Origin: Escherichia coli O127:H6 str. E2348/69
GTDB taxonomy: Bacteria; Pseudomonadota; Gammaproteobacteria; Enterobacterales; Enterobacteriaceae
Direction: 5' to 3' (one strand)
NCBI RefSeq assembly: GCF_000026545.1
Contig: NC_011601.1
Length of the DNA: 64,000 nucleotides
A program made the position numbers. How positions within the stretch are numbered: position 1 is the stretch's first letter; each line of letters opens with the position of its first letter. Of the stretch, positions 12,001-15,000 are shown piece by piece.

Positions 12001-15000
12001 AACAGCCGTTGATACTTACCGTTATCTGAACTTCGACCAGCTTTCTCAGTACACCGAAAAAGCGGACGGGGTGATTTTCCAGACTGCGGTTTAATAAGTA
12101 AGCGCACGCGCTGCGCATAAACGACACAATGCCCGGTGAATGAGATTCCCGGGCATTTTTTATTTCTAAACCATCGCCGTTCCGCTGTTTTTCTCCGGTA
12201 AGGCTGCGATAATTACATCAATGGCGCAATGCGATTTCGGCGCATTGCCAGGAGCAGAGGAACACACTATGGATTACGAATTTCTGCGCGATATTACCGG
12301 AGTGGTAAAGGTGCGCATGTCCATGGGGCATGAAGTGGTCGGGCACTGGTTTAATGAAGAGGTGAAAGAAAACCTGGCCTTGCTTGATGAAGTGGAACAA
12401 GCGGCGCACGCATTGAAAGGTAGCGAACGTTCCTGGCAACGGGCAGGGCATGAATACACGTTGTGGATGGACGGTGAAGAGGTGATGGTTCGCGCCAATC
12501 AACTGGAATTCGCTGGCGATGAAATGGAAGAGGGGATGAACTACTACGATGAAGAGAGCTTGTCGCTGTGCGGCGTTGAGGATTTTCTTCAGGTGGTGGC
12601 GGCTTACCGTAATTTCGTGCAGCAGAAGTAAGTAAATCAGGCGGAGCCTCCGTGCTCCGCCTGAGACGTTAAACAGCGGGCATATTGCGCCCGTAATAAA
12701 TCTCGCGCATTTCTTTCCACAGCGCAGCGGTAATTTCCTGGCGCTCGCTGTCGGTTAAATCTTCCGGTTTGGTGTGGAACATGTAGTGCTTAAGATCGAA
12801 CTCTTTAAGCAACATCTTGGTATGGAAGATATTCTCCTGATAGACGTTCACATCCACCATGTCATACAGCGCCTTCATATCGTCAGACATAAAGTTCTGA
12901 ATCGAATTAATCTCATGGTCGATAAAGTGCTTCATACCGTTAATGTCGCGGGTAAAACCGCGCACACGATAATCAATAGTCACAATATCGGACTCAAGCT
13001 GGTGGATCAGGTAATTCAGCGCCTTCAGCGGAGAAATCACGCCGCAGGTAGAGACTTCAATATCGGCGCGGAAGGTACATAAACCGCCTTCAGGATGACT
13101 TTCCGGGTAGGTATGTACGCAAATATGACTTTTATCGAGATGGGCAACGACCGTTTCTGGCAGTGGGCCGGGGTGTTCTGTTTTGTCGATAAGTTTCGGG
13201 TCGACCGGTTCTTCACTCACCAGAATAGTGACGCTGGCACCTTGTGGTTCGTAATCCTGGCGGGCGATGTTAAGAATATTGGCCCCGATAATGGAACAGG
13301 TTTCTGACAGGATTTCGGTCAGACGGTTGGCATTATAGAGTTCATCGATATAAGCAATATAACCGTCGCGCTCTTCGGTAGTTTTGGCGTAGCAGATATC
13401 GTAAATACAAAAACTCAGACTTTTGGTCAGATTATTAAAGCCATGCAGTTTCAGTTTTTTCAATTTCTTATCTTCTCCTTAGGACGGCTGTGAAGCCAGT
13501 GCATCTTGCAGATACTGGGGTAAGGCAAAAGCTGCCGTATGGACTGCCGGATTGTAATAACGGCATTTCAGGCCAGAAGCGAGAAAACGCGCCTGAATAA
13601 TTTCGGTTGAGAGATGGCGTAAGGCGTCGTTATCTGTCGCCCATGCAAAGGTCATGATGCCGCCGTAATAGGTCGGGATCGCCGCCTGATAAAAGCCAAC
13701 ATCGCTGAAGTAATGGCTGAGTTTGCGATGACTGTCGATGGCCTCTTCCTGCTGTAAAAAGCAGACGCCGTTTTGTGCGACGAAGATACCGCCAGGATTC
13801 AGGCAACGTTTGCAGCCTTCATAAAATGCAGAAGTAAACAGACTTTCGCCGGGACCGATAGGATCGGTGCAGTCGGAGATAATGACATCAAAGGTCTGGT
13901 TGGTTTGATTAACGAAATTGACACCATCGTCGATCACCAGTTTAAAGCGCGGATCGTCGTAACTACCGGCGTTATGGTTGGGAAGATACTGACGGCAGAA
14001 CGACACGACACCCGCATCGATTTCCACCATCGTGATTGACTCAACGTTTTTATGTCGGGTTACTTCACGCAGCATGGCACCGTCGCCGCCGCCGATAATC
14101 AGCACATGTTTCGCGTGACCGTGGGCCAGTAGCGGAACATGGGTCATCATCTCATGATAGATAAACTCGTCGCGCTCGGTGGTTTGTACTACGCCATCCA
14201 GCGCCATTACGCGACCAAATGCAGCGTTCTCAAAAATGATCAGATCCTGGTGATCGGTCTTTTCATGATACAGAACGTTATCTACCGCAAAGTACTGCCC
14301 AAACTGGTCGTGTAGCGTTTCATGCCACTGTTTTTTTTCGGCCATGGGTTGATACCTCCTTTGTTAACACCCGTAAAAAAATGGCGCAACATAATAGCTA
14401 ACATTGACCGCGGATGCACGGTCAATATTTCTACAAAAAGGTATCAGGGATTATTTGACGTAGGCAAGCAGGCTTAAGGAATCGCGGGCCAGGGCTTTGC
14501 ACTTTTTAGCGACGGGAATGCCAATGCCACTGAGATCGCGGTAGCTGTCTTCACCGAGGGCTTTCATGTCGAAGGTGTCGTAATTACTGAGATCCCACTG
14601 GTTTTGCTGGGCGAAAAAGACCAGCGCGCGACGAATTTGCCCGTTAGGTAAGTTCTGGTAACCACAATCGTTCTTCAGAAAAACAAAAACTGCCGTTAAA
14701 TCGGCCATATCTTCGGCTTCAGACTCGCTGAGCGCGTAACTGTTTGCGCAAACGGCCATCAGGCTGCCGAATAACACTGTTCTGAAAAACGTCTTCATTG
14801 CTTCTACCAGGGGCTTAAAGAAGATAAACGTTAGCACACTGCGAGCGAGGCGACGACCATTATTGTCGATTAAATTGTGTCTGCGACTTGACCTTCCCGT
14901 AAGGGGAAGGACTATGCTCAACGTTTGATTTTGTTTCGCCTGCTTAAGAATAAGGAAATAACTATGCAACGTCGTGATTTCTTGAAATATTCCGTCGCGC

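What the first reader, a model, noticed from the sequence alone, without database searches (positions are those of the whole stretch)
14403..14426. Perfect 8-bp inverted repeat in the speE-yacC intergenic region
ATTGACCG-N8-CGGTCAAT lies between the speE start (14345) and the yacC 3' end (14451). It has no adjacent T-run, so it is not an obvious intrinsic terminator; it may be a transcription-factor operator for the speED promoter or an RNA structure.
Basis: seen in the sequence. Interest (0 to 1): 0.25.

Follow-up and report, generated by a model that had tools for sequence, protein, structure and literature searches.

The report
5' stem-loop of speED mRNA
The small palindrome between yacC and speE is real and conserved, and it most likely folds as a hairpin at the very start of the messenger RNA for the two spermidine-synthesis genes, an ordinary kind of mRNA 5' structure rather than a protein-binding operator or a terminator.

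Summary
The repeat ATTGACCG-N8-CGGTCAAT is exactly at 14403-14426. Such a repeat alone is not remarkable: about a third of the window's similar repeats are expected by chance.

Comparison with 47-80 Enterobacterales loci shows selection for base pairing. The arms change in a compensatory way, and the non-Watson-Crick pairs are overwhelmingly G:U on the speE-sense (minus) strand (74 against 8). That indicates an RNA hairpin, not a symmetric operator.

Two public E. coli K-12 datasets (TSS-seq and triphosphate-specific SMRT-Cappable-seq) place a strong speE-speD transcription start at MG1655 136,550, which is window 14431. The RNA then begins 5'-GA followed by a 13-bp stem (14429..14400, dG -17.2 kcal/mol).

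A second mapped start (136,504/136,500, window 14385/14381) lies downstream, so the same DNA spans -41..-18 of that promoter. No 3' end maps at the hairpin, and it has no U-tract.

Best reading: a 5'-terminal stem-loop that limits RppH/RNase E 5'-end-dependent decay of speED mRNA. The structure and position are shown. The stabilising function is inferred.

This is a new member of a known kind, of low to moderate interest.

The parts
14403..14426 (-). It forms the central 8 pairs of the RNA stem.
   Evidence: The core 8 pairs are 323 Watson-Crick, 29 G:U and 8 A:C cells across 47 species.
14400..14429 (-). Full RNA stem-loop on the speE-sense strand: 13 bp (AAUAUUGACCGUG / CGCGGUCAAUGUU) with a CAUC loop. 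It occupies +3..+32 of the transcript that starts at 14431.
   Evidence: Fold dG -17.2 kcal/mol, z -5.24. 88.9% of cells are paired, against 26-48% for slid controls. There are 39 compensatory cells against 13.9 in shuffles, 0/500. RNAalifold consensus.
14431..14431 (-). Transcription start of speE-speD mRNA (MG1655 136,550), giving an 86-nt 5' UTR.
   Evidence: Cho 2014 Table S4/S6: 158 reads in stationary, glutamine and heat conditions. SMRT-Cappable-seq: b0121|b0120 from 136,550. The 50 nt upstream in K-12 are identical to the window.
14438..14467 (-). Inferred promoter for the 14431 start: -35 TTGCCT (14467..14462, inside the last yacC codons), an 18-bp spacer, and an extended -10 TGaTACCTT (14446..14438).
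   Evidence: Read from the sequence upstream of the mapped TSS. It was not detected by the consensus scan. This part is inference.
14391..14396 (-). Conserved -10 hexamer TATTAT (TATNAT across genera) of the downstream speE promoter.
   Evidence: Five of the six positions (all but the fourth) are invariant or at least 90% conserved in 47 species. A box matching G[ACT]TA[TC][GTC]AT, which includes this hexamer, is present in 71/80 loci. The TSS lies 5-9 nt downstream.
14381..14385 (-). Second speE-speD transcription start (MG1655 136,504 by TSS-seq, 136,500 by SMRT-Cappable-seq), giving a 40-nt 5' UTR. The palindrome lies at -41..-18 relative to 14385.
   Evidence: Kim 2012 and Cho 2014: 18 reads, exponential phase. 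Yan 2018.
14415..14421 (-). Invariant CCGTGCA (end of the 5' arm plus the start of the loop). It is kept even in genera that have lost the hairpin, and it sits at about -36..-30 of the downstream promoter.
   Evidence: Invariant columns C33-C38 in alignment A1, next position at least 90%. Retained in Klebsiella, Raoultella and Atlantibacter, which lack the stem. Its function is unexplained.
14362..14391 (-). Second stem-loop (UGUUGCGCC...GGUG-UUAACA, U-rich loop) between the hairpin and the speE ribosome-binding site. The 14385 start lies within its 5' side.
   Evidence: It recurs in per-species folds with some compensatory changes, but there is no alifold consensus.
14431..14446 (-). C/U-rich tract 4 nt after the yacC stop that can pair with the speE Shine-Dalgarno (14359..14355). 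It is present only in read-through RNA from the yacC promoter.
   Evidence: z -4.0. P(unpaired SD) is 0.08 in read-through RNA against 0.73 in RNA starting at the hairpin for E. coli. Across 47 species the effect is largely compositional.

Best explanation
The palindrome encodes an RNA stem-loop on the minus (speE-sense) strand, at the extreme 5' end of the main speE-speD messenger RNA. In E. coli, RNA polymerase starts at window 14431, using a promoter that overlaps the end of yacC. A base-paired 5' end with only about two free nucleotides is a poor substrate for the pyrophosphohydrolase RppH and for 5'-end-dependent RNase E. The hairpin therefore most likely prolongs the life of speED mRNA, and it gives that mRNA a defined, yacC-independent 5' end with an accessible ribosome-binding site. 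The same DNA also happens to span the weakly constrained -41..-18 stretch of a second, conserved speE promoter (start at 14385/14381). That would explain why the arms are free to covary while flanking promoter blocks stay invariant. Shown: the structure, its conservation by covariation, its strand, and its position relative to mapped 5' ends. Inferred: the promoter hexamers and the stabilising function.
For: The arms covary while pairing is kept: ATTGACC/GGTCAAT, AATGACC/GGTCATT, CTGACC/GGTCAG, TATAGCC/GGCTATA, CTCTGGCC/GGCCAGAG. RNAalifold predicts only this hairpin, with 4 of 10 pairs compensatory. 88.9% of cells are paired against 26-48% for slid partners, and there are 39 double-change cells against 13.9 +/- 2.7 in shuffles, 0/500. 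Strand test: 74 G:U/U:G cells against 8 A:C/C:A cells, and the sense hairpin is more stable in 35 of 47 species (antisense in 10), mean -14.7 against -11.8 kcal/mol. TSS-seq gives 136,550(-) with 158 reads for speE;speD. Triphosphate-specific SMRT-Cappable-seq independently gives b0121|b0120 from 136,550, and yacC alone from 136,938. The fold from that start has 2 unpaired nt and then a 13-bp stem, dG -17.2, z -5.24, with the SD unpaired. RppH and RNase E need at least 2 unpaired 5' nt and prefer 3 or more, and a 5'-terminal stem-loop blocks RppH (PMC8833179). The ompA and papA precedents are cited in PMC3997798. K. pneumoniae has only the downstream-type TSS and has lost the stem. The hairpin is intact in 49/67 loci with yacC adjacent against 3/13 otherwise, whereas the promoter box is present in 71/80, so the hairpin depends on transcription entering from upstream.
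Against: The 5'-terminal position is documented only in E. coli K-12. Most other genera that keep the hairpin (Enterobacter, Leclercia, Lelliottia, Cedecea, Pantoea, Erwinia) show no recognisable -10 at the right distance upstream, so the 5' end there is unknown. Two unpaired nucleotides, the second a purine, is exactly the minimum RppH accepts. The three basal pairs (A:U, A:U, U:G) are also weak, so protection may be only partial. No half-life data were found. CCGTGCA stays invariant even where the stem is lost, so part of the conservation is not explained by the hairpin. The species counts are not phylogenetically corrected.
Confidence: 0.55

Rival explanations
1. The hairpin works as an intercistronic element in read-through yacC-speE-speD RNA. 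It could help form a multibranch fold in which the C/U-rich tract after the yacC stop pairs with the speE Shine-Dalgarno, so that read-through RNA is not translated and is Rho-terminated inside speE. Alternatively it could mark a processing boundary that leaves a hairpin-protected speED 5' end, as in papBA.
For: The read-through fold sequesters the SD (dG -38, z -4.0). P(unpaired SD) has a median of 0.14 in read-through RNA against 0.52 in RNA starting at the hairpin, across 47 species. A bicyclomycin-sensitive (Rho) signal lies at 136,337 inside speE. SMRT-Cappable-seq scores transcripts from the yacC promoter as yacC-only. The hairpin is kept in many genera that lack a recognisable upstream -10, and it tracks yacC adjacency.
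Against: Shuffling the 5' segment gives nearly as much SD pairing (0.27, p = 0.13), so the anti-SD effect is mostly C/U composition. RNAalifold finds no conserved long-range helix. No 3' end or processing site at the hairpin appears in the held datasets. In E. coli the mapped 5' end at the stem base is triphosphorylated, so it is primary and not processed.
Confidence: 0.2
2. The palindrome is a double-stranded DNA operator for a dimeric regulator. It would repress the downstream speE promoter (site at -41..-18) or block elongation from the upstream one (+6..+29).
For: The position is typical for a repressor site relative to the mapped TSS at 14385. The E. coli half-sites TTGACC/GGTCAA resemble TetR-family boxes such as RutR. 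That resemblance is recalled from memory and was not tested here.
Against: The half-site sequence is not conserved: it reads ATGACC, CTGACC, ATAGCC or CTGGCC in other genera. Changes are compensatory between the arms, which restores pairing but would not restore protein contacts. Deviations are strand-biased, 74 G:U against 8 A:C. The E. cloacae complex has lost the downstream promoter box yet keeps an unrelated hairpin at the same place. The 10-bp separation of the half-sites does not fit the recalled RutR spacing. No paper reporting a regulator at speE was found.
Confidence: 0.08
3. The hairpin is a weak, non-canonical terminator or a 3'-end-protecting stem for the yacC transcript.
For: It lies 24 nt after the yacC stop. 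yacC transcripts were scored as not extending through speED.
Against: There is no U-tract and no hit in the terminator scan. Term-seq reports a 3' end inside yacC (136,766) and none at 136,522-136,545. There is none in the held SMRT-Cappable-seq tables either. The Rho signal is further downstream, inside speE.
Confidence: 0.05
4. The hairpin serves the antisense strand, as a 5'-proximal stem of a plus-strand RNA that starts at window 14400.
For: Cappable-seq lists a weak plus-strand TSS at 136,519, which is window 14400. The plus-strand fold gives an 8-bp stem, dG -11.7.
Against: The signal is near threshold (2.45). Covariation favours the other strand: A:C cells, which would be wobble pairs on the plus strand, are rare (8 against 74), and the plus-strand hairpin is less stable in 35 of 47 species.
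Confidence: 0.03

Closest known systems
5'-terminal stem-loops that stabilise E. coli mRNAs (ompA 5' UTR hairpin; papA 5' stem-loop)
   Same: A stable hairpin lies within about 2 nt of the mRNA 5' end, upstream of an accessible ribosome-binding site. Only the pairing is conserved, not the sequence. The expected effect is to hinder RppH and 5'-end-dependent RNase E.
   Different: No half-life or mutational data exist here. There are two free nucleotides and weak basal pairs, so protection may be partial. The DNA also overlaps a second promoter. The papA hairpin end arises by processing, whereas the E. coli speED end is primary.
Tandem, condition-specific promoters with alternative 5' UTRs
   Same: Two mapped starts 46-50 bp apart serve the same operon. 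One was seen in exponential phase and the other in stationary, nitrogen-limited and heat conditions. They produce 5' UTRs of 86 and 40 nt.
   Different: This describes the setting rather than the hairpin itself. Only the longer UTR carries the hairpin.
Palindromic repressor operators (for example TetR-family boxes such as RutR TTGACCAnnTGGTCAA, recalled from memory)
   Same: The E. coli arm sequence is TTGACC/GGTCAA, and the location is promoter-proximal.
   Different: The half-sites are 10 bp apart instead of 4. They are not conserved across genera, and they show compensatory, strand-biased changes.
Intrinsic terminators and Rho-trimmed 3' stem-loops
   Same: It is a stem-loop shortly after a stop codon.
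   Different: It has no U-tract, and no mapped 3' end lies at the site.

Membership tests
5'-terminal mRNA stem-loop (ompA/papA type) | The stem begins within a few (0-4) nucleotides of the transcript 5' end | tested here: met
   The TSS at 136,550 (window 14431) appears in two independent datasets. The stem starts at +3. Shown for E. coli only.
5'-terminal mRNA stem-loop (ompA/papA type) | A thermodynamically stable hairpin maintained by selection on pairing | tested here: met
   dG -17.2, z -5.24. Covariation 0/500 shuffles, and 88.9% of cells paired. Sense-strand G:U bias.
5'-terminal mRNA stem-loop (ompA/papA type) | Removing the stem shortens mRNA half-life in an RppH/RNase E-dependent way | not testable with these tools
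   This needs rifampicin chase experiments on stem-disrupted and compensatory mutants. No published data were found.
Intrinsic (Rho-independent) terminator | A G+C-rich stem followed directly by a U-tract | tested here: not met
   No terminator-like site at 14400-14430 on either strand. The tail is GUUAGCUAUUAUG.
Intrinsic (Rho-independent) terminator | An RNA 3' end mapped just downstream of the stem | tested here: not met
   Term-seq lists 136,766 (inside yacC) and nothing at 136,522-136,545. There is none in the held SMRT-Cappable-seq files.
Palindromic transcription-factor operator | Half-site sequence conserved across species that share the regulator | tested here: not met
   Four stem positions switch between different Watson-Crick pairs.
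Palindromic transcription-factor operator | Strand-symmetric constraint (deviations equally A:C or G:T) | tested here: not met
   74 G:T/T:G cells against 8 A:C/C:A cells.
Palindromic transcription-factor operator | A match to a known regulator motif, or demonstrated binding | not tested
   No motif library or ChIP/SELEX table was available. The literature search found no regulator at speE.
Repetitive extragenic palindromes (REP/BIME) | Many dispersed copies per genome | tested here: not met
   A median of one place per genome in 5,424 E. coli genomes.
Described RNA families (Rfam 15) | A covariance-model match at or near the gathering score | tested here: not met
   Only chance-level snoRNA hits, E >= 0.5, far below gathering scores.
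Riboswitch or other ligand-sensing leader | A conserved multi-helix architecture with invariant junction nucleotides that no other function explains | tested here: inconclusive
   Two stems flank an invariant linker. However, the linker behaves like a sigma-70 -10 (TATNAT) plus a G+C-rich discriminator, with mapped starts just downstream. No alternative-fold evidence was found.

The most novel reading that the evidence does not exclude
The hairpin, the invariant CCGTGCA and the invariant linker AGCUAUNAUGUUGCGCC could together form a dedicated cis-regulatory leader of speED. It might be bound by a protein or small molecule tied to polyamine or growth status. In that case the overlap of an RNA stem with the -35/spacer of a second promoter would be a functional dual-use design that couples the two promoters, not a coincidence of a crowded 105-bp spacer.
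Probability: 0.07. Interest if true: 0.6.

Novelty: new member of a known kind. Interest (0 to 1): 0.27.

Why it matters
It gives a concrete, testable post-transcriptional feature for the spermidine-synthesis operon, whose regulation in E. coli is poorly described. It also supports revising the textbook yacC-speE-speD operon picture. Most speED mRNA appears to start inside the yacC-speE spacer, from two condition-specific promoters, and the longer transcript carries a conserved 5' hairpin. As a method point, strand-biased G:U covariation can separate an RNA hairpin from a DNA operator, even when the palindrome sits on a promoter.

Tried and rejected
- Rfam scan at permissive E-value: only chance snoRNA hits.
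- Consensus promoter scan: found neither experimentally mapped promoter, so its silence is uninformative.
- Terminator reading: rejected, because there is no U-tract and no mapped 3' end.
- Chance palindrome: the repeat alone is unremarkable, but covariation rejects chance.
- Repeat-element reading: rejected, as it is single-copy.
- Upstream ORF from the AUG in TATNAUG: it has no Shine-Dalgarno, and the downstream loop length varies by non-multiples of three between species, so it was rejected.
- Alternative sigma factors and several regulator consensus sequences (sigma-32, -24, -28, -54; NtrC, ArgR, Fur, CusR, PuuR, RutR) were compared with the conserved blocks by eye and from memory. None fitted in spacing or conservation. 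This was not a formal test.
- Papers not held: Xie, Tabor and Tabor 1989, Thomason 2015 and Kroger 2012.
- The minus-strand part of the Cappable-seq table is truncated.
- The Dar and Sorek supplements are not held.
- The Salmonella late-stationary dRNA-seq lists only the yacC start.
- My first literature search was wasted because 'speED' matches 'speed'.
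Full report
**1. Observation**

The window carries the E. 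coli acnB-yacL-speD-speE-yacC-cueO-gcd region. yacC (14798..14451), speE (14345..13479) and speD are all on the minus strand. The reported repeat is exactly where stated: ATTGACCG (14403-14410), an 8-nt spacer, then CGGTCAAT (14419-14426). No T-run follows on either strand, and the terminator scan finds nothing there.

A perfect 8-bp inverted repeat with a short loop is not rare. The window has 53 raw (about 30 distinct) such repeats, against 11.9 +/- 4.4 in dinucleotide shuffles. The repeat alone therefore proves nothing. The stretch is single-copy and at least 95% identical in 5,422 of 5,426 complete E. coli genomes. Rfam has no match.

**2. Comparative evidence that pairing is selected, and on which strand**

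I fetched 80 orthologous speE loci from Enterobacterales and aligned the yacC-stop to speE-start spacer of 47 of them (alignment A1). The arms change in step:
- ATTGACC/GGTCAAT (Escherichia, Superficieibacter)
- AATGACC/GGTCATT (many genera)
- CTGACC/GGTCAG
- TATAGCC/GGCTATA
- CTCTGGCC/GGCCAGAG

RNAalifold run on A1 predicts this hairpin and nothing else, and 4 of its 10 pairs show changes on both sides. For the 13-pair stem I defined, 88.9% of cells pair, against 26-48% when partners are slid by 1-3 columns. There are 39 double-change cells against 13.9 +/- 2.7 in shuffles (0 of 500 reach the observed value), and the covariation score is 0.304 against 0.187.

The decisive point for interpretation is strand bias. 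Among non-Watson-Crick cells, 74 are G:T/T:G, which pair as G:U on the speE-sense strand. Only 8 are A:C/C:A, which would be the wobble pairs on the other strand. The sense-strand hairpin is more stable in 35 of 47 species and the antisense one in 10, with means of -14.7 and -11.8 kcal/mol.

A symmetric protein operator predicts conserved half-sites and no strand bias. Both predictions fail. These counts are not phylogenetically corrected, although the slid-partner control keeps relatedness.

**3. What lies around it**

Two blocks are nearly invariant at fixed spacing: CCGTGCA (14421..14415) and GTTRGCTATNATGTTGCGCC. The second reads as a sigma-70 -10 hexamer, TATNAT, followed by a G+C-rich discriminator.

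The hairpin and these blocks are separable:
- Klebsiella, Raoultella and Atlantibacter keep both blocks but have lost the 3' arm.
- The Enterobacter cloacae complex has lost the -10 block yet carries a different small hairpin at the same place.
- Over all 80 loci, the core stem is intact in 49 of 67 loci where yacC is directly upstream, against 3 of 13 where it is not (Fisher p = 0.001, uncorrected). The -10-type box is present in 71 of 80.

The hairpin therefore depends on what is transcribed into it from upstream, and the box does not.

**4. Experimental transcript ends from the literature**

The window maps to MG1655 with an offset of +122,119, since speE is at 135,598-136,464.

| Source | Result |
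|---|---|
| Kim et al. 2012 (PMC3415461), TSS-seq | TSS at 136,504(-), 18 reads, 40-nt UTR for speE. The quoted 50 nt upstream are identical to the window. Also yacC at 136,940, and a K. pneumoniae speE start inside the homologous block |
| Cho et al. 2014 (PMC3923258), four conditions | Adds 136,550(-), 158 reads in stationary phase, glutamine and heat shock, assigned to speE;speD and sigma-70. 136,504 was seen in exponential phase |
| Yan et al. 2018 (PMC6131387), SMRT-Cappable-seq | speE-speD transcripts from 136,550 and 136,500. Transcripts from 136,938 carry yacC only and are marked shorter than the RegulonDB yacC-speE-speD operon |
| Adams et al. 2021 (PMC7815308), Term-seq | A 3' end inside yacC (136,766) and a bicyclomycin-sensitive signal inside speE (136,337). 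No 3' end at the hairpin |

The TSS-seq data rely on Terminator exonuclease, which structured 5' ends can resist, so a triphosphate-specific check was needed. SMRT-Cappable-seq provides that check and confirms 136,550. None of the held SMRT-Cappable-seq tables lists a 3' end at the hairpin either.

**5. Anatomy that follows**

MG1655 136,550 is window 14431, the G of GTAG|AAAT. RNA from that start is 5'-GA, then a 13-bp stem (AAUAUUGACCGUG / CGCGGUCAAUGUU, window 14429..14400) with loop CAUC. Its dG is -17.2 kcal/mol, z is -5.24, and 0 of 200 shuffles fold as well.

Upstream of the start I read a -35 TTGCCT (inside the last yacC codons), an 18-bp spacer and an extended -10 TGaTACCTT. This is inference, and the consensus scan missed it.

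The same DNA is at -41..-18 of the 136,504 start. In the 86-nt leader a second stem (14391..14362) follows, and the Shine-Dalgarno is unpaired.

**6. Mechanism**

Established knowledge: RppH and RNase E need at least two unpaired 5' nucleotides and prefer three or more, and a 5'-terminal stem-loop blocks RppH (PMC8833179). The ompA and papA 5' stem-loops are the classic stabilisers (references in PMC3997798).

The speED leader fits this design, so I take mRNA stabilisation, and definition of a yacC-independent 5' end, as the most likely function.

Caveats:
- Two free nucleotides, the second a purine, is the minimum RppH accepts.
- The three basal pairs are weak.
- The 5'-terminal position is shown only for E. 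coli.
- A recognisable -10 at the right distance exists in Escherichia, Citrobacter, Salmonella arizonae and Pseudocitrobacter, but not in most other genera that keep the stem.
- The Salmonella dataset I could read lists only the yacC start.

**7. Rivals**

(a) Role in read-through RNA. In RNA running from yacC, a C/U-rich tract 4 nt after the stop pairs with the speE Shine-Dalgarno and encloses both hairpins (dG -38, z -4.0). Median P(unpaired SD) is 0.14 there, against 0.52 in RNA starting at the hairpin. Together with the Rho signal inside speE and the yacC-only transcripts, this suggests that read-through RNA is untranslated and terminated. However, shuffling the tract gives 0.27 (p = 0.13) and no conserved helix is found, so support is weak.

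(b) Operator. The position fits, but half-site conservation and strand symmetry both fail.

(c) Terminator. There is no U-tract and no 3' end.

(d) Antisense RNA. A weak plus-strand start at 136,519, window 14400, would carry the stem, but covariation favours the other strand.

**8. Novelty and verdict**

The transcription starts are already in public tables, and Yan et al. flag the speED units as novel relative to RegulonDB. I found no description of the hairpin itself. It is a new member of a well-known kind.

What remains unexplained is the invariance of CCGTGCA where the stem is lost. It may serve as a -35-region element of the downstream promoter or as a binding site.

Interest is low to moderate.

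Noticed in passing
window 14381-14396 (minus strand), with 14397-14402 upstream: The downstream speE promoter has a -10 (TATNAT), the flanking GTTRGC, and a long G+C-rich discriminator (GTTGCGCC), all conserved across genera. It has a poor -35 and an A/T-rich stretch (GAAATAAT) where an UP element would sit. It was detected only in exponential phase. This resembles growth-rate or stringent-controlled promoters such as rrnB P1, a comparison recalled from memory.
   Followed up: partly
window 14400 (+ strand): Cappable-seq lists a weak antisense TSS at MG1655 136,519. It is 15 bp from the minus-strand start at 136,504 and shares the same AT-rich -10 (CATAAT/TATTAT), so this may be a bidirectional promoter.
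   Followed up: partly
window 14415-14421 (minus strand): CCGTGCA is essentially invariant in the 47 aligned species. It is retained in Klebsiella, Raoultella and Atlantibacter, which have lost the hairpin. No sigma-factor or regulator consensus that I compared fits it.
   Followed up: partly
window 14647 (minus strand, inside yacC) and 14218 (inside speE): Term-seq reports a strong RNA 3' end inside yacC (MG1655 136,766) and a bicyclomycin-sensitive, Rho-dependent signal early in speE (136,337). Transcripts from the yacC promoter may therefore rarely reach speED.
   Followed up: no
window 13479-14798 (speE, yacC) and speD 12669-13463: In Cho 2014 Table S7, speE, speD and yacC are all higher in a delta-rpoS strain in stationary phase. 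For speE the values are about 7.2 against 10.05, presumably on a log2 scale. This suggests sigma-S indirectly lowers expression of this locus.
   Followed up: no
L018, L019, L024, L076 (Enterobacter cloacae complex), about 1425-1450: The GTTAGCTATGAT block and the usual hairpin are replaced by a different small G+C-rich hairpin (ACCGC-N6-GCGGT), while GTTGCGCCC and the second stem remain.
   Followed up: partly
L075 (Erwinia rhapontici) 1287-1500; L006, L007 1273-1500: Insertions of about 100-120 nt occur either between the second stem and the speE ribosome-binding site (L075) or between yacC and the hairpin (L006, L007). In L006 and L007 a good -10 (TATATT or GATATT) sits just upstream of the hairpin.
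   Followed up: partly
K. pneumoniae MGH78578 152,189(-) (Kim 2012); homologous to L030, L045, L060: The Klebsiella speE start lies 8 nt upstream of the E. coli-equivalent position and appears to use TATAGT, which is the degenerated 3' arm of the lost hairpin, as its -10.
   Followed up: partly
window 14362-14391 (minus strand): A second stem-loop with a U-rich loop lies between the hairpin and the speE Shine-Dalgarno. It shows some compensatory changes across genera (CGCCC/GGGUG, CGCUC/GAGCG, CGCUUAU/AUGAGUG). The 136,504 start falls within its 5' side.
   Followed up: partly
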